Numbered from the stretch's first letter, positions 36,270 to 41,613 are shown. The stretch is 64,000 nucleotides of DNA from Nostoc sp. (GCF_036917415.1 NZ_JBALDJ010000114.1:227209-291208), one strand, 5' to 3'. A program made the numbers and translations. Notes: generated by a model from the sequence alone, not told the origin.

Positions 36270-37679
36270 TCAGCGCCCGATTTCTACGTCTTCAAGGATG
36301 CCAAGTGCATCGGGGATGAGAATGGCTGCACAGTAGTAGGCGCTGACAAGATAAGAAATGACGGCTTTTTCGTTGATACCCATGAATTTGACGGACAAGC
36401 TGGGTTGGTATTCATCAGGGATACCCGTTTTGTGTAGACCTATCACCCCTTGGTTTTCTTCTCCGACACGGAGTACCAAAATAGAGCTAGTACCCTCCTT
36501 GGTAATTGGAATTTTGTTACAAGGAAAAATCGGATAGTTGCGCCATGCAGGTACAATCTTTCCATTGACCTCCCTGCTTGGGGAATAGATTCCACGACGG
36601 TTACACTCCCGCCCAAAAGCAGCGATCGCGCGAGGATGAGCAAGGAAAAAATGGGATTTGCGCCGCCGAGAGAGCAATTCATCAAAATCATCTGGAGTCG
36701 GTGGCCCGGTGCGGGTAAAGATGCGTTGCTTAAGATCGGCATTGTGCAACAACCCGAAATCAGGATTATTCAGCATTTCGTATTCTTGCCGTTCCCGCAA
36801 CGCTTCGATGGTCAGCCGTAGTTGTTGCTCCGTCTGGTTCATGGGTTCGTTGTAGATGTCAGCAACTCGCGTATTCACCCGTAAAACGGTTTGAGCGACG
36901 CTTAACTCATACTCCCGTGGACTCAAGTCGTAATCAACAAATGTCCTGGGTAACTCAGTTTCCGGACTATGACCAGCAGTCATAATGATCTCGGCCTGAT
37001 TATGCTTATCCTGGGGTTTGCTCAACATAGCTCTAAAGCGATCGACCTGAGTCTGCAACGCTTCAGACTGGTTCATCAACTCCCGAAACGCCTGTACTGG
37101 CAAAGACAAAACTATGCAGCGCGTAACAGCTCTGAGGCTAACCTCCCAAGTGTCCTGAGATAGAACTATAGCTTCGCCACCAAAACAATCGCCGTCAGCT
37201 AAGATATCCCGTAAAGCTTCCGCCTCATATTTGCCTGCCTTCAGCTTATTAACTTTACCACGAGCAATTAAGAACACGCGATCGGCTGGTTGACCTTCCT
37301 GTACAATTACCTGACCAGGGGCAAATTCTTGTTGCACAAAGCGGTCTGCCAAGGCGTTGAGTACCTCAATATCCTCAAACCCGCGCAGTAAAGGGAGTTC
37401 ACAAAGTGCTTGGGGAATGACCCGCACCTGAGTCCCTGTATTGGTAAAGCTGACTCGTCCATTACCAACATCATAGGTCAAGCGACGGTTAACCCGATAG
37501 GCCCCACCCCTGATTTGCACCCAAGGCAACATCTGTAACAACCACCTAGGGGTAATGCCCTGCATCTGGGGCGGAGTTTTCGTGGTTTTGGCTAAATTCC
37601 GCGCCCCTTTCGTGCTTAAGCTGATCTGGGGTTGCCCATTTTCTTGGTCTAAATCTGGTCTAATCGAAACATTTGTCAT
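36270..37679 (-). CDS. Family 2B encapsulin shell protein with inserted cNMP-binding domain (Cnb), copy 2
   Basis: [16 protein letters not shown]...YRVNRR, a central cNMP domain, then [25 protein letters not shown]...ERQE...GPPTPDD. Confidence 0.9.
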
Positions 37680-37783
37680 AAAGTTAACGTTTCATGCGAC
37701 TAAATTTACTCTCCTAACAGAGAGCATTGGAGGGTAGGAACGAACGACCGTTCGTTCCTACTTTAAAGAGGATGTCCGACTAC

Positions 37784-39193
37784 TTAGAGACCAATTTCTA
37801 TATCTTCAAGGATGCCTAGTGCATCAGGAACGAGAACGGCTGTAGAGTAGTAAACACTAACCAGGTAGGAAATAACGGCCTTTTCGTTAATCCCCATAAA
37901 ACGGACAGACAAACTAGGCTGATATTGATCGGGAATATTCGTTTTGTGCAGACCAATAACACCCTGGTTGGTTGCTCCCACGCGCATTAACATAATGGAG
38001 CTAGTACGCTCTTTCGTAACGGGAATCTTATTACAAGGATAGATGGGAATACCACGCCAAGCCGGAATTGCACTGTTACCCATCGGGATAGGATCGGGAT
38101 AAAGTCCAAGGTGGTTACATTGCCGACCAAACGCCGCAATGGTGCGGGGATGAGCGAGGAAAAAGCTCGGTTCTTTCCAAACAATGGAGATCAATTCATC
38201 GAGATCGTCGGGAGTTGGGGGACCACTGCGGGTAAAAATGCGTTGTTTGAGGTCAGCATTGTGTAGCAGTCCGAAGTCACGATTGTTCACCATTTCGTAT
38301 TCTTGGCGTTCCCGTAGGCCTTCGATGGTGAGCCGTAATTGTTCCTCAGTCTGGTTCATGGGTTCGTTGTAGAGGTCAGCAACCCGTGTATTAACTTGCA
38401 AAATAGTCTGAGCCACGCTTAACTCATATTCCCGTGGATTCAGTTCATAATCTGCAAACGTCCCAGGTAATACTGCCTCTGGGAAGTGGTCGGCAGAAAT
38501 TCTGATATCAGCTTCCCCTTCTTGGTTTTTGGGTTGCCTCAACTTTACTCTGAATTGATCCACTTGCGCTTGCAGAGCCTCAGACTGGTTAACCAGGTTC
38601 TGAAAGGCTGTTTGAGGTAGAAACAAGATGGTGCAACGGGTAAGAGCAACGAGGGTGACATCCCAAGTATCCTGAGATTCCACTAAAGCGTAATCACCAA
38701 AATGGTCACCATCAGCTAATACAGTCAAAACAACTGGCTCGTCATACTTGCCTGGACTAATTTTATTGACTCTACCATGGGCAATCAGCACTACTTGATC
38801 AGCCGCTCGACCTTCTTGTATGATGACATCTCCGGCTGCAAATTCTCGTTGCACAAATTGACGAGCTAAGGCGTTTAATACCTCGACATCTTCAAATCCC
38901 CGTAACAAAGGTATCTCAGTGAGTTCTTGAGGGATGACCTGTACCTGGGTCCCTACATTGCTAAAGCTGATCCGTCCATCTCCAACCGTATAGGTTAAGC
39001 GACGGTTGACCTGATAGCTACCCCCCACGGTTTCTACCCAAGGCAGCAGTTTTAAGAGCCACCGTGAGGTAATTCCCTGCATCTGGGGTTGGGTTTTGGT
39101 GGTGCCTGCCAATTTCCGCGCCGCTTCGATCTGCAAACTCATTGGCAGTTGCTCAATTTGATTTTCTATAGGAGTGTTTGCTGCATTAGTCAT
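37784..39193 (-). CDS. Family 2B encapsulin shell protein with inserted cNMP-binding domain (Cnb), copy 1
   Basis: Same architecture as the paralog at 36270, also 469 aa. Confidence 0.9.
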
Positions 39194-39261
39194 GATTAAT
39201 CTCCATCAGTAATGTTAGTTGACAAGTTATTTGATTGACCAGAATTGGGACTCAGATTGAG

Positions 39262-41613
39262 CTAACCTTTCGTTCCTAACAGCGATCCGATTTGCATAGC
39301 CGAAGTCCCTAACCCTGTTGAACCACTCAGTAAGTTCTGCACCACTGGCTGAACATTGGTTTGAGTTTTTTCGTGACCTACACTTGGTCTAATTTTGGTT
39401 GCGGCAGTGCCTAACCCTGTGGGGCTTTGGAGTAATCGCTTTTCTGACGAGTTATTCCGCAATTCAAATTCCTTATAGCGGTCTACCGCCCTATGCCATT
39501 TGAGTACCCCACACATCCACTGCTCTAGTTTCTTGATGTAACCGTACAGTTTCTTACGGGCACTGGTATCCAGGTCAAAATCATCACACAAGATAGGGAG
39601 TTCAGTCGCAACGATATGTTGAAACTGAAGGGCACGGGAGGTCATCAGGTCGTTAACAATGGCGACAGCGTGGGGAATATCGCAGTTCAGGAAATTCTGA
39701 ACCGCCAGCACACCGTTATTAATCTCGCCCTCAAATTCGATTTCTTTCTGGTAAGAGAAAATATCGTTCGTCAAACAGGCGAAGTCAGCAGCTGAATTAT
39801 CAATTGCCTGCATGGTTCGGGTGGCGAAGACCTCTGGTGGGATCTCGTCCCCTTGGGAAAGTCGAGACAGGCTCATAGTTAGATCGGAGCCAAAGGTCTT
39901 ACGACGCATTTCCACATAATCTATCGGGTCTGGAATGCGATTTTGGATCTGGTTAGCCAGTTCCCATAACCAACTTTCCGTCATATCCTCGATCGCCTGA
40001 CGAAACTGGCGACGAGCATTAGCGGTCATGGGGTCAGCCGTCCGCGCCCAAATATCAGCTAAACCCCGTTCAACTGGGTTTGTTGCTTCGGGAATGGGAT
40101 CTCCATCAAGGGGCATAAAGGCTGATAGCCGAGCGTTGAAAACTTTTGCCCCTGCCATGTTGCGGCTATAGCCATACAGTGCCGGGAAGTAGTCATCGGC
40201 ATAGGTTCCCCAAACCAGCCAACAGGCTGTGATATTCAATTCAGCACTAGATCCATTGGGATGAATATAAGCACCACATAAGGCTACGTCGGCCACATCA
40301 AATTTGTGGTCATCCCAGATGTAAATGCTGGGCATCCCTGGCAGTACGTCCAACATCCCCATTTGACGCGCCCATTCTTTAGAATGCCGCCGAGCCTCTT
40401 CTAGATGGTGATTCAAACTGGTGGAGAAAGGCATATAAAACTGCGGCAAGGTTACTGGCCCTACAGGCTGATAGGGAACATGGGTGAAGCTTTTGAACCG
40501 TTTTAGTCCCAAACTATCGTATAAGGCTCCTAAACGAGCCGCCGATGTACCTAGTCCAGTAGGGCCACCTAAAAGCCAGTTTGCTGTCGAAGATTTGTCT
40601 GATGTCTGGTTCATGTAGCGGCTCGATCTCATGTGCCACTCATGACCCCCCGACTGCCAGTCCTGAAGTCCTTTGGCATATAGGACGACTTTCAAACGCT
40701 CATCGGGACTGAGACTATATTCCTCGAACAAGGAAGGAAGCTCAGTAACAAAGGTGTTCTCGAACTGTTGCACTCTAGACGTTAGTAAGTCGTTAGTGAG
40801 GTTGGCCGCCTCTTGGGTACTGACATCAAGGAATCGTTCCAAGACCAGGATACAGTTAGCATTTTCTCCTTCTTCTTCAACTTCTCTTTGGTAAGAGAAG
40901 ATGTCATTTCGCAGATGTACCCCGTCAGAAAAGGTGTCTTTGAGGACACGCATTGGTCGAGTGGGGGCGATCGCAGCCGGAATTTCTGCCCCAACCGCGT
41001 GTTCCACCAGGTTAGCTGACCAGGGCGCTCCCCCCACCTTACGGCGCATCTCAATGTACTCAATCGGGTTAGCGACTCGATCCTGGCTGATATTGGCGAG
41101 TTCCCAGAGAGATTCTTTGAGAAGATTGATGGTACTCTCAGAAAATCGGATTACCCAGTCTTGGGAGGCATTGGGGATGGTACGATTCCAGAGGTCTACT
41201 AAACCCCTTTCTACAGCATTAGTGGGTTCTGGCGGCGTTTTTTGGGGCTGCACTGGCATAAACGCTGGTAGTCTATTGAGGTACTTCTTAGCCCCAGCCA
41301 TATCTTGGCTACGCTTGTAAAGCTCAAGGAAGTGATCGTCAAAGAAAAATACCCAAACATACCAATCAGTTACCAGATTGAGCATAGGTTCATCGGTATC
41401 TGGATGGGTATAGGAACACAATAGTGCATAGTCATGGGCATCAAACTTGCGCTCATCCCAAATCCCATAATCTTCTGATCCCTCTTCCCCACCCAAAATC
41501 CCCATTTCATAAGCCCAGGCTTTAGAATGTACCCGTGCCGCTTCCAGGTTTGGGTTCAGCCGTGCCAGCCAAGGCACATAAAAACTTGGCAACTTAAAAG
41601 GTTGCTTGCTCAT
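39262..41613 (-). CDS. geoA: Germacradienol/geosmin synthase
   Basis: Two terpene cyclase halves: DDHFLE + NDIFSYQRE and DDYF + NDIFSYQKE. Also [15 protein letters not shown] and [12 protein letters not shown]. Confidence 0.95.

What the first reader, a model, noticed from the sequence alone, without database searches (positions are those of the whole stretch)
36270..41613. Geosmin synthase operon with two Family 2B encapsulin shell genes: probable two-component nanocompartment
Seen in sequence: geoA is followed by two 469-aa paralogs carrying the Family 2 encapsulin shell motifs with an inserted cNMP-binding domain. Established knowledge: these genes were long annotated as cnb regulators in cyanobacterial geosmin operons, but homologs in Streptomyces form Family 2B shells that package terpene cyclases such as 2-MIB synthase. 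Inference: geosmin synthesis here is compartmentalised in a possibly mixed shell. I am not aware of this being shown in a cyanobacterium.
Basis: partly seen in the sequence, partly recalled or inferred. Interest (0 to 1): 0.66.

Follow-up and report, generated by a model that had tools for sequence, protein, structure and literature searches.

The report
Nostoc geosmin synthase encapsulin cassette

Summary
On the minus strand lie geoA (41613-39262, 783 aa), an Enc1-type shell gene (39193-37784) and an Enc2-type shell gene (37679-36270), both 469 aa and 67% identical. All three pass NCBIfam's curated cut-offs for 'family 2 encapsulin cargo terpene cyclase' and 'family 2B encapsulin shell'. The shells are about 62-66% identical to solved Family 2B shells.

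GeoA carries three copies of the published cargo-loading peptide ([15 protein letters not shown]). All three lie in segments that AlphaFold2 predicts as disordered. The motif occurs nowhere else in the 7.36-Mb genome.

The same geoA-enc1-enc2 operon was shown in M. xanthus to form a GeoA-loaded two-component shell (PMC13739066, Nov 2026). That paper and the censuses of 2021 and 2025 already include cyanobacterial operons. No cyanobacterial geosmin shell has been tested directly.

- The operon lies on an 8.6-kb cassette flanked by insertion-sequence (IS) remnants. A congener has an empty site at this locus and carries the cassette elsewhere.
- The cassette includes a CrtE-derived prenyl synthase paralog with Phe at the chain-length position, probably a dedicated FPP supplier and not a cargo.
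- This GeoA clade has three loading peptides where the Myxococcus GeoA and the actinobacterial GeoAs examined have at most two.

Interest is low.

The parts
39262..41613 (-). geoA, bifunctional germacradienol/geosmin synthase (783 aa), the predicted cargo
   Evidence: NF041168 scores 1239.8 bits against a cut-off of 1200. PF19086 matches in two stretches. The N-terminal domain aligns to solved S. coelicolor GeoA 5dw7 at E 6e-148. Metal-binding motifs: DDHFLE 41323-41340, NDIFSYQRE 40882-40908, DDYFP 40183-40197, NDIFSYQKE 39742-39768. The AF2 model has two helical domains with pLDDT about 90.
40531..40569 (-). Cargo-loading peptide 1, [13 protein letters not shown], GeoA residues 349-361, in the inter-domain linker
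   Evidence: It is an exact match to the published motif GP(N/T)GLGTSAAR. It lies in the AF2 segment 337-375 with pLDDT below 50. It is conserved in all related GeoAs except four (L080, L085, L086, L090).
39391..39429 (-). Cargo-loading peptide 2, [13 protein letters not shown], GeoA residues 729-741, in the C-terminal tail
   Evidence: It lies in the disordered tail 723-783. It is present in most GeoAs of the 781-785-aa cyanobacterial clade.
39289..39327 (-). Cargo-loading peptide 3, [13 protein letters not shown], GeoA residues 763-775, in the C-terminal tail
   Evidence: It lies in the disordered tail. It is a third copy: the M. xanthus GeoA and the actinobacterial GeoAs examined carry at most two. 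[TN]GLGT[SA] occurs only three times in the six-frame translation of the genome, all in GeoA.
37784..39193 (-). enc1, Enc1-type Family 2B encapsulin shell protein (469 aa)
   Evidence: NF041163 scores 736.6 bits; PF19307 and PF00027 both match. The best solved relative is Sl-Enc1, 9BJE, at 628.8 bits. The Enc1 diagnostic motif [14 protein letters not shown] lies at 38147-38188. R26 and E255 correspond to MxEnc1 R24 and E253; the phosphate-cassette position holds W177.
36270..37679 (-). enc2, Enc2-type Family 2B encapsulin shell protein (469 aa)
   Evidence: NF041163 scores 761.2 bits. The best solved relative is Sl-Enc2, 9BIX, at 639.9 bits. The Enc2 diagnostic motif [13 protein letters not shown] lies at 36633-36671. 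R27, E256 and W178 are conserved.
35113..36042 (-). CrtE-derived polyprenyl synthase paralog (309 aa) with Phe93 (TTT, 35764-35766) five residues before the first DDxxD. It is a probable dedicated FPP synthase and not a cargo.
   Evidence: NF045685 scores 524.5 bits; NF041169 (encapsulin cargo PT) scores only 242.7 against a cut-off of 450. A second genomic copy on C73 is 65% identical and has Met at this position. All 19 operon-linked cyanobacterial copies have Phe; the copies taken to be the housekeeping CrtE have Met. The gene is part of the cassette in three genomes.
34841..43417 (.). 8.6-kb cassette, present here and absent at the orthologous site of a congener
   Evidence: In G157, orf100 and the saccharopine-dehydrogenase-like gene (97-98% aa identity to the window's) lie 447 nt apart. 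The junctions fall at window 34840/34841 and 43417/43418. The same cassette (window 35004-43215, 93-94% nt identity) sits at other loci in G157 and G179. GC is 0.47-0.49 for geoA, enc1 and enc2, against 0.416 for the window.
34956..34984 (.). Solo terminal repeat of a 984-bp IS
   Evidence: A 26-nt repeat is found at 34956-34981 and 42442-42467. There are 8 copies in the genome, including an inverted pair that bounds a 984-bp IS on C64.
42442..42883 (.). Truncated, diverged copy of the same IS, including a DDE transposase fragment at 42586-42840 (minus strand)
   Evidence: It is 79% identical to nt 1-441 of the C64 IS. It matches PF13586 DDE_Tnp_1_2.

Best explanation
The locus encodes a geosmin nanocompartment of the published two-component Family 2B encapsulin type.

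Proposed mechanism:
- Enc1 (39193-37784) and Enc2 (37679-36270) co-assemble into a roughly 27-nm, 60-subunit T=1 shell of HK97 fold. The CBD-fold domains face outward around large two-fold pores.
- GeoA is tethered inside by three short peptides (xPTGLGT(S/A)A), one in its disordered inter-domain linker and two in its C-terminal tail. These dock in pockets at the interior three-fold axes.
- FPP diffuses in and geosmin diffuses out through the two-fold pores.
- Encapsulation mainly stabilises the proteolysis-prone enzyme and improves yield.
- The CBD-fold domains do not bind cAMP or cGMP, because the phosphate-binding Arg is Trp. They may gate the pores in response to an unknown ligand; the N-arm Arg and E-loop Glu that stabilise the closed pore in M. 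xanthus are conserved here.
- A CrtE-derived prenyl synthase paralog just downstream has Phe at the chain-length position. It lacks any loading peptide and probably supplies FPP from outside the shell.
- The four genes travel together on an 8.6-kb cassette flanked by IS remnants.

Shown here: gene identities, motifs, predicted disorder, synteny, and the cassette insertion. Inferred by homology: assembly, loading, pore behaviour and benefit. Inferred from the known chain-length rule: FPP specificity of the paralog.
For: Family membership:
- Shell and cargo HMMs score above the curated cut-offs.
- Full-length alignments show about 62-66% identity to the three solved Family 2B shells 9BIX, 9BJE and 9BHU.
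- Identity to the M. xanthus proteins is reciprocal: Enc1-MxEnc1 61.6% against 58.2%, and Enc2-MxEnc2 62.3% against 60.3%.
- The Enc1 (VWKEP) and Enc2 (R-RRK) diagnostic indel motif is shared with actinobacterial and M. xanthus pairs.

Cargo loading:
- Three loading-peptide motifs match the published GP(N/T)GLGTSAAR.
- All three fall in AF2 segments with pLDDT below 50 (337-375 and 723-783), between well-folded cyclase domains.
- The motif is unique to GeoA in the whole genome.

Synteny and residues:
- The order geoA-enc1-enc2 is conserved in about 35 named cyanobacterial loci.
- R24 and E253 equivalents are conserved, and the Arg-to-Trp replacement is invariant in 70 of 70 sequences.

Experimental precedent:
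- M. xanthus geoA-enc1-enc2 forms GeoA-loaded mixed T=1 shells, and deleting the loading peptides lowers loading (PMC13739066).
- S. lydicus Enc1/Enc2 form mixed shells (PMC12407261).
- S. griseus Enc packages 2-MIB synthase and does not bind cAMP (PMC11550324).
- Cyanobacterial Cnb proteins of the 2-MIB cluster localise to compartments (PMC12159092).

Prenyl synthase and cassette.
Against: - No cyanobacterial geosmin shell has been purified or imaged.
Co-transcription rests only on short gaps and the lack of predicted terminators between the genes.
- Which paralog can self-assemble cannot be inferred. The Enc1-type protein assembles alone in M. xanthus, but the Enc2-type does in S. lydicus.
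- Peptides 2 and 3 deviate from the consensus (TAATK and SAMQ instead of SAAR).
- The GeoA score is only just above the NF041168 cut-off (1239.8 against 1200).
- One Phe-type prenyl synthase paralog (G042) has no geoA or shell gene nearby.
- Most geoA operons in the family lack the paralog, so it is an accessory, not a core part.
Confidence: 0.85

Rival explanations
1. The two shell proteins do not mix. Only one forms the GeoA-containing shell, and the other forms a separate shell or has a non-structural role.
For: Andreas & Giessen 2021 could not exclude separately assembling shells. In both tested systems one paralog fails to assemble alone. In a congener (G157) enc2 has lost its first 53 codons while enc1 and geoA are intact, so one paralog may be dispensable.
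Against: Mixed shells were demonstrated by differential tagging in both M. xanthus and S. lydicus. The Enc1/Enc2 pair and its order are conserved in nearly all cyanobacterial geoA operons examined. The genome has no other cargo carrying the loading peptide.
Confidence: 0.1
2. The two 469-aa proteins are cyclic-nucleotide-responsive Crp/Fnr-type regulators of geoA. This is the old 'cnb' annotation.
For: PF00027 matches. There are weak NCBIfam hits to CRP, FtrB and FixK. Several public records still name them Crp/Fnr regulators.
Against: No helix-turn-helix domain is found. The CRP-type hits score 18-33 bits against cut-offs of 180-300 and cover only the CBD. Residues 217-469 are an HK97-type shell domain. 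The cNMP phosphate-binding Arg is Trp in both proteins. Binding assays on S. griseus and M. xanthus homologs found no cAMP binding.
Confidence: 0.02
3. Shells form, but their main role in cyanobacteria is to retain or store the volatile product, which would explain the cell-bound geosmin pool. Enzyme stabilisation would be secondary, and GeoA loading may be partial.
For: Expression of the cyanobacterial cnbA-mtf-mtc-cnbB cluster caused intracellular 2-MIB retention that mtf-mtc alone did not (PMC12159092). Only about 25% of the three-fold sites were occupied in M. xanthus.
Against: Two-fold pores of about 20 x 60 A would not hold back a small volatile unless closed. The three loading peptides and their exclusivity to GeoA argue that enzyme packaging is the selected feature.
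Confidence: 0.08

Closest known systems
Myxococcus xanthus GeoA / MxEnc1 / MxEnc2 two-component Family 2B encapsulin (Fazal, Dutcher, Andreas, Giessen; Adv Sci 2026, PMC13739066)
   Same: The gene order geoA-enc1-enc2 is the same. Enc1 carries VWKEP and Enc2 carries RRRK at the diagnostic motif. The shells are 58-62% identical. The loading-peptide motif [11 protein letters not shown] lies in the linker and the C-terminus. R24 and E253 are conserved, and the CBD has Trp in place of the phosphate-binding Arg.
   Different: The host is a cyanobacterium. GeoA has three loading peptides, not two. A CrtE-derived Phe-type prenyl synthase lies downstream. The whole unit sits on a cassette flanked by IS remnants. 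Nothing has been tested experimentally here.
Streptomyces lydicus Sl-Enc1/Sl-Enc2 (PDB 9BJE/9BIX; Adv Sci 2025, PMC12407261)
   Same: It is a two-component Family 2B pair with the same diagnostic motifs. The window's Enc1 best matches 9BJE and its Enc2 best matches 9BIX.
   Different: The S. lydicus cargo is a xylulose kinase, not a terpene cyclase. There the Enc2-type protein self-assembles, the opposite of M. xanthus.
Streptomyces griseus Sg Enc (EshA) with 2-MIB synthase (PDB 9BHU; Nat Commun 2024, PMC11550324)
   Same: It is a Family 2B shell packaging a terpene cyclase through a disordered loading region. Trp replaces the phosphate-cassette Arg, and the protein does not bind cAMP.
   Different: It has a single shell component (Enc2-type motif). 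The loading domain is N-terminal, and the cargo is a monoterpene cyclase.
Actinobacterial TC/PT two-component operons (e.g. Kribbella enc1-geoA-enc2-PT; loci L094-L117)
   Same: A prenyl synthase with Phe at the chain-length position lies directly downstream of enc2.
   Different: Their prenyl synthase is only 31-39% identical, is longer (341-366 aa) and belongs to the cargo family NF041169. The Nostoc protein is a 309-aa duplicate of cyanobacterial CrtE without an extension, so this is convergent recruitment. The gene order also differs, with geoA between the two shell genes.
Pseudanabaena cnbA-mtf-mtc-cnbB 2-MIB cluster (PMC12159092)
   Same: These are cyanobacterial Family 2B shell paralogs flanking a terpene cyclase. 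It is the only cyanobacterial system with cell-biological data (compartments seen by immuno-EM).
   Different: The product is 2-MIB, not geosmin. In the one cyanobacterial locus of this layout that I examined (Microcoleus L116, two shell genes about 2.4 kb apart), both shells carry the Enc2-type motif. The shells flank the cargo genes.

Membership tests
Family 2B encapsulin shell protein (NF041163; PF19307 + PF00027) | HK97-type SrpI-like shell domain | tested here: met
   PF19307 scores 433.5 and 444.1 bits. Full-length alignments show about 62-66% identity to solved shells 9BIX, 9BJE and 9BHU.
Family 2B encapsulin shell protein (NF041163; PF19307 + PF00027) | CBD-fold (cNMP-binding-like) domain inserted ahead of the shell domain, which distinguishes 2B from 2A | tested here: met
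   PF00027 matches at residues 116-203 and 117-204. The 2B equivalog scores 737 and 761 bits, against 365 and 361 for the 2A model.
Family 2B encapsulin shell protein (NF041163; PF19307 + PF00027) | Trp in place of the cNMP phosphate-binding Arg | tested here: met
   W177 and W178 align with the cassette Arg of a canonical CBD. The Trp is invariant in 70 of 70 Family 2B sequences and is published as W176 of Sg Enc.
Family 2B encapsulin shell protein (NF041163; PF19307 + PF00027) | Self-assembly into a T=1, 60-subunit icosahedral shell | not testable with these tools
   This needs expression followed by SEC, TEM or cryo-EM.
Two-component (Enc1/Enc2) Family 2B operon (PMC12407261) | Two Family 2B shell genes within 10 kb in conserved order | tested here: met
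   The genes are adjacent with a 104-nt gap. The same order is found in about 45 cyanobacterial loci.
Two-component (Enc1/Enc2) Family 2B operon (PMC12407261) | Conserved diagnostic A-domain sequence difference between Enc1 and Enc2 | tested here: met
   The upstream protein has [14 protein letters not shown] and the downstream protein has [13 protein letters not shown]. The same split is seen in actinobacterial pairs and in MxEnc1/MxEnc2. I inferred which stretch is 'motif 1' from alignments; the paper's figure was not available.
Two-component (Enc1/Enc2) Family 2B operon (PMC12407261) | Co-assembly of both protomers into one mixed shell | not testable with these tools
   This needs differential tagging and mass spectrometry.
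Encapsulin cargo geosmin synthase (NF041168) | Two terpene-cyclase domains with DDHFLE/NSE and DDYFP/NSE metal-binding motifs | tested here: met
   All four motifs are present. PF19086 matches twice. NF041168 scores 1239.8 bits against a cut-off of 1200. The AF2 model has two helical domains.
Encapsulin cargo geosmin synthase (NF041168) | GP(N/T)GLGTSAAR-type loading peptides in the disordered linker and C-terminus | tested here: met
   There are three motifs at residues 349-361, 729-741 and 763-775. All lie in segments with pLDDT below 50.
Encapsulin cargo geosmin synthase (NF041168) | Physical encapsulation | not testable with these tools
   This needs co-purification or cryo-EM.
Encapsulin cargo polyprenyl transferase (NF041169), considered for the downstream prenyl synthase | Family HMM above cut-off and a terminal disordered extension | tested here: not met
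   The score is 242.7 bits against a cut-off of 450, covering profile positions 2-270 of 334. The 309-aa protein is collinear with the 310-aa housekeeping CrtE copy. It has no TGLGT motif.
Crp/Fnr transcription factor (old cnb annotation) | C-terminal helix-turn-helix DNA-binding domain and a cNMP-competent phosphate-binding cassette | tested here: not met
   No HTH family is found. CRP-type models score 18-33 bits against cut-offs of 180-300. The cassette Arg is replaced by Trp.

The most novel reading that the evidence does not exclude
In a subset of Nostocales the geosmin nanocompartment is a self-contained, IS-mobilised four-gene module: geoA with three loading peptides, enc1, enc2, and a CrtE duplicate retuned by a Met-to-Phe change into a dedicated FPP synthase. 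This module hops between chromosomal sites and lineages and so spreads earthy-odour production. The prenyl synthase was recruited convergently with the unrelated cargo-type prenyl synthases that follow enc2 in actinobacterial operons.
Probability: 0.45. Interest if true: 0.4.

Novelty: already known. Interest (0 to 1): 0.2.

Why it matters
Geosmin from cyanobacteria is a major taste-and-odour problem in drinking water. If the synthase works inside a protein shell, that affects how production, cell-bound retention and release are understood and monitored.

The concept is already published and annotated, so this window adds only another instance. Three side results are useful leads rather than discoveries:
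- The operon is a mobile cassette.
- The cassette carries its own probable FPP synthase.
- This cyanobacterial GeoA clade carries a third loading peptide.

A genetically tractable Nostoc would be a good place for the first in-vivo test of a Family 2B shell in a phototroph.

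Tried and rejected
The consensus promoter and terminator scan was no better than shuffles.

2. Rfam: RF02735 'Saccharopolyspora sRNA 350' matches the plus strand antisense to the 5' part of both shell genes, at 59 and 58 bits against a gathering score of 50. I read this as conservation of the underlying coding sequence, not as evidence of an antisense RNA in Nostoc.

3. Additional cargo: a six-frame search of the whole genome for the loading-peptide core found it only in GeoA.

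4. Prenyl synthase as cargo: rejected. It scores below the NF041169 cut-off and has neither an extension nor a loading peptide.

5. Inferring which paralog self-assembles from orthology: not possible, because M. xanthus and S. lydicus give opposite answers for the same motif types.

6. A single ancient Enc1/Enc2 split visible in the whole-sequence tree: not supported. Cyanobacterial Enc1 and Enc2 clades are sisters, and an AU test rejects monophyly of all Enc1-type sequences (p 0.0017).

7. Recent gene conversion as the cause of (6) in this genome: not seen. Third-codon identity is 0.54 overall, with a mild rise at codons 241-300.

8. The 26-nt flanking direct repeat as a target-site duplication: rejected. 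It is the terminal repeat of a dispersed 984-bp IS.

9. cNMP regulation: rejected.

Full report
OBSERVATION.
- geoA, 41613-39262, 783 aa
- a first 469-aa gene, 39193-37784
- a second 469-aa gene, 37679-36270

The gaps between them are 68 and 104 nt. In Pfam, GeoA matches PF19086 in two stretches. Each 469-aa protein matches PF19307 (SrpI-like encapsulin shell, 433.5 and 444.1 bits) and has PF00027 inserted at residues 116-204. In NCBIfam, GeoA scores 1239.8 bits on NF041168 'family 2 encapsulin nanocompartment cargo protein terpene cyclase' (cut-off 1200). The two shells score 736.6 and 761.2 bits on NF041163 'family 2B encapsulin nanocompartment shell protein' (cut-off 400).

The paralogs are 67% identical, and they are the only Family 2B shell genes in the 7.36-Mb genome. 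The genome is a Nostoc. The nearest public proteins are 95% identical and already carry the name 'family 2B encapsulin nanocompartment shell protein [Nostoc sp.]'.

WHAT THE LITERATURE ALREADY HOLDS.
- Fazal, Dutcher, Andreas and Giessen (Adv Sci, Nov 2026, PMC13739066) studied M. xanthus geoA followed by two Family 2B genes. The system forms T=1 shells of about 27 nm that contain both protomers and internalised GeoA.
[quoted passage not shown] Encapsulation improves yield and protects GeoA from proteolysis.
- A closed two-fold pore state, stabilised by Arg24-Glu253 contacts, appears only in mixed shells.
- Andreas and Giessen (2021, PMC8346489) had already catalogued 64 cyanobacterial Family 2B operons with terpene-cyclase cargo and raised the idea of two-component shells.
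- The 2025 paper on S. lydicus (PMC12407261) catalogued 503 two-component operons, cyanobacterial ones included. It defined Enc1 as the upstream and Enc2 as the downstream gene, and reported conserved diagnostic motifs.
- The S. griseus work (PMC11550324) showed that the CBD-fold domain has Trp in place of the phosphate-binding Arg and does not bind cAMP.
- For cyanobacteria, Cnb proteins of the 2-MIB cluster were localised to intracellular compartments in S. elongatus (PMC12159092).

I found no direct experiment on a cyanobacterial geosmin shell.

TESTS OF MEMBERSHIP DONE HERE.
Shells:
- Both shells align over their full length to the three solved Family 2B shells.
- The matches are reciprocal. 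The upstream protein best matches Sl-Enc1 (9BJE, 628.8 against 614.6 bits). The downstream protein best matches Sl-Enc2 (9BIX, 639.9 against 596.6 bits).
- I took the M. xanthus sequences from the preprint's supplement. The same reciprocity holds: 61.6 against 58.2%, and 62.3 against 60.3%.
- A one-residue indel motif separates the two types in cyanobacteria, actinobacteria and M. xanthus alike. Enc1 has S(I/L/T)VWK(E/D)PxFFLAHP and Enc2 has SR-RRKxxFFLAHP. The window's genes are therefore an Enc1/Enc2 pair in the published sense.
- The equivalents of MxEnc1 Arg24 and Glu253 are present in both proteins (R26/E255 and R27/E256).
- The phosphate-cassette position is Trp in all 70 sequences I aligned.

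Cargo:
- GeoA has both sets of metal-binding motifs.
- It carries three copies of the loading-peptide core: [13 protein letters not shown] (residues 349-361), [13 protein letters not shown] (729-741) and [13 protein letters not shown] (763-775).
- An AlphaFold2 model built on a 29-sequence alignment (mean pLDDT 81.3, pTM 0.83) gives two confident helical cyclase domains. The segments with pLDDT below 50 are 337-375 and 723-783, so all three peptides lie in predicted flexible regions.
- In the six-frame translation of the whole genome, [TN]GLGT[SA] occurs three times, all in GeoA. No second cargo is indicated.
- Three motifs are the rule in the 781-785-aa GeoA clade of Nostocales. The M. xanthus GeoA and the actinobacterial GeoAs examined have at most two.

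SURROUNDINGS: THE PRENYL SYNTHASE.
- A polyprenyl synthase gene lies 227 nt downstream of enc2 on the same strand (36042-35113, 309 aa).
- It passes the CrtE (GGPP synthase) equivalog cut-off (524.5 against 460) and fails the encapsulin-cargo prenyl transferase model (242.7 against 450).
- The genome has a second copy on another contig, 65% identical.
- The window's copy has Phe five residues before the first DDxxD ([12 protein letters not shown] at 35764-35766). The other copy has Met (HTMSLIHDD).
- In 151 genomes of the family, almost every genome has one CrtE. A second copy lies directly downstream of enc2 in six of the 28 geoA-positive genomes, spread over five genera. It is also present in 14 named loci.
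- All of these operon-linked copies have Phe. The copies I take to be the housekeeping CrtE (64-70% identical to the window's paralog, usually the only copy in their genome) have Met, as do several unlinked second copies of 72-78% identity.
- From the established chain-length rule for short-chain prenyl synthases, where an aromatic residue at this position stops elongation at C15, the paralog is probably a dedicated FPP synthase. This is an inference and was not tested.
- The protein has no extension relative to CrtE and no loading peptide, so I do not regard it as cargo.
- Actinobacterial operons (Kribbella and others) also have a Phe-type prenyl synthase after enc2. It is only 31-39% identical and belongs to the cargo family, so the Nostoc arrangement looks like convergent recruitment.
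- Exceptions: one Phe-type paralog (G042) has no terpene genes nearby, and most geoA operons lack the paralog.

SURROUNDINGS: THE CASSETTE.
- geoA, enc1 and enc2 have GC 0.47-0.49 (GC3 0.44-0.50). The window as a whole has GC 0.416, and the flanking genes have GC3 of 0.26-0.41.
- A 26-nt repeat flanks the four genes at 34956-34981 and 42442-42467. It is the terminal inverted repeat of a 984-bp IS that is intact on contig C64. The right-hand copy belongs to a truncated, 79%-identical IS fragment that includes the DDE transposase fragment at 42586-42840.
- In a same-genus genome (G157), the genes that flank the cassette here lie 447 nt apart. These are the 100-aa ORF next to the invertase and the saccharopine-dehydrogenase-like gene, at 97-98% amino-acid identity.
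- The alignments place the junctions at window 34840/34841 and 43417/43418, which makes an 8577-nt insert.
- G157 and G179 carry the same cassette (window 35004-43215, 93-94% nucleotide identity, prenyl synthase and transposase fragment included) at other loci.
- geoA is present in 22 of 31 genomes of the genus and 28 of 151 of the family.
- The four genes therefore move as a unit.

MECHANISM.
- By homology, Enc1 and Enc2 co-assemble into a T=1 shell, and GeoA is tethered inside by its three peptides at the three-fold pockets.
- FPP and geosmin pass through the large two-fold pores. The benefit is enzyme stability and yield.
- The CBD-fold domains cannot bind cyclic nucleotides. They may gate the pores with an unknown ligand.
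- Which paralog nucleates the shell cannot be predicted. The VWKEP-type protein self-assembles in M. xanthus, but the RRRK-type does in S. lydicus.
- I put 0.85 on shell formation with GeoA as cargo, and somewhat less on a truly mixed shell.

SIDE OBSERVATION ON SHELL EVOLUTION.
- A maximum-likelihood tree of 70 shell proteins places the cyanobacterial Enc1 and Enc2 clades as sisters (SH-aLRT 99).
- An AU test rejects a tree in which all Enc1-type sequences, defined by the indel, form one clade (delta lnL 224, p 0.0017). I defined this group after seeing the tree.
- The diagnostic indel is nevertheless shared across phyla.
- Synonymous-site identity between the window's paralogs is near saturation (0.54), so any homogenisation is old.
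- This tension between the motif and the tree is unexplained.

VERDICT. The cyanobacterial case lacks only a direct experiment.

Noticed in passing
window 34841-43417: The geoA-enc1-enc2-prenyl synthase genes lie on an 8577-nt insert relative to a same-genus genome (G157), which has an empty site here and carries the same cassette elsewhere. The insert is flanked by remnants of a 984-bp IS (a solo end at 34956-34984 and a truncated copy at 42442-42883).
   Followed up: yes
window 35113-36042 (Phe codon 35764-35766): This is a CrtE paralog with Phe instead of Met five residues before the first DDxxD. All 19 operon-linked cyanobacterial copies share the Phe, and the copies taken to be the housekeeping CrtE have Met. 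It is probably an FPP synthase recruited convergently with the unrelated cargo prenyl synthases of actinobacterial operons.
   Followed up: partly
window 38649-39157 (+) and 37144-37640 (+): Rfam RF02735 'Saccharopolyspora sRNA 350' (antisense type) matches above its gathering score, antisense to the 5' third of each shell gene. This is probably conservation of the coding sequence on which that family was built. It also suggests that the Rfam family itself is antisense to a Family 2B shell gene.
   Followed up: partly
alignment of 70 Family 2B shells (loci L040-L116, window, M. xanthus): The Enc1/Enc2 diagnostic indel is shared across phyla. Yet the whole-sequence tree makes cyanobacterial Enc1 and Enc2 sister clades, and an AU test rejects Enc1-type monophyly (p 0.0017). 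There is no recent gene conversion in this genome. The conflict is unexplained.
   Followed up: partly
L169 (G157:C21) 1367-2660; same as L070: In a congener's copy of the cassette, about 240 bp are missing between enc1 and enc2. This removes the first 53 codons (N-arm) of enc2 while geoA, enc1 and the prenyl synthase stay intact. It is a natural variant that may lack a functional Enc2.
   Followed up: no
L072, L075, L076, L078; L065, L066, L068, L073: Other cyanobacteria (Phormidium, Coleofasciculus, Scytonema-like and others) have Enc1-Enc2 pairs. Some sit next to a protein only 42-47% identical to GeoA over most of its length, presumably a different cyclase. Others have no GeoA-like gene over at least half its length within the flank examined. 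These are possible shells with other cargo.
   Followed up: no
L147 (G042:C1) 7980-8885: This Phe-type CrtE paralog (78% identical) stands alone, with no geoA, shell or terpene genes within 8 kb. Its neighbours are AAA/WD40, AI-2E transporter, LuxR and protease genes.
   Followed up: partly
window 42993-43030 and 43062-43099: Two perfect 38-nt direct repeats lie 69 nt apart inside the IS-remnant region upstream of geoA.
   Followed up: no
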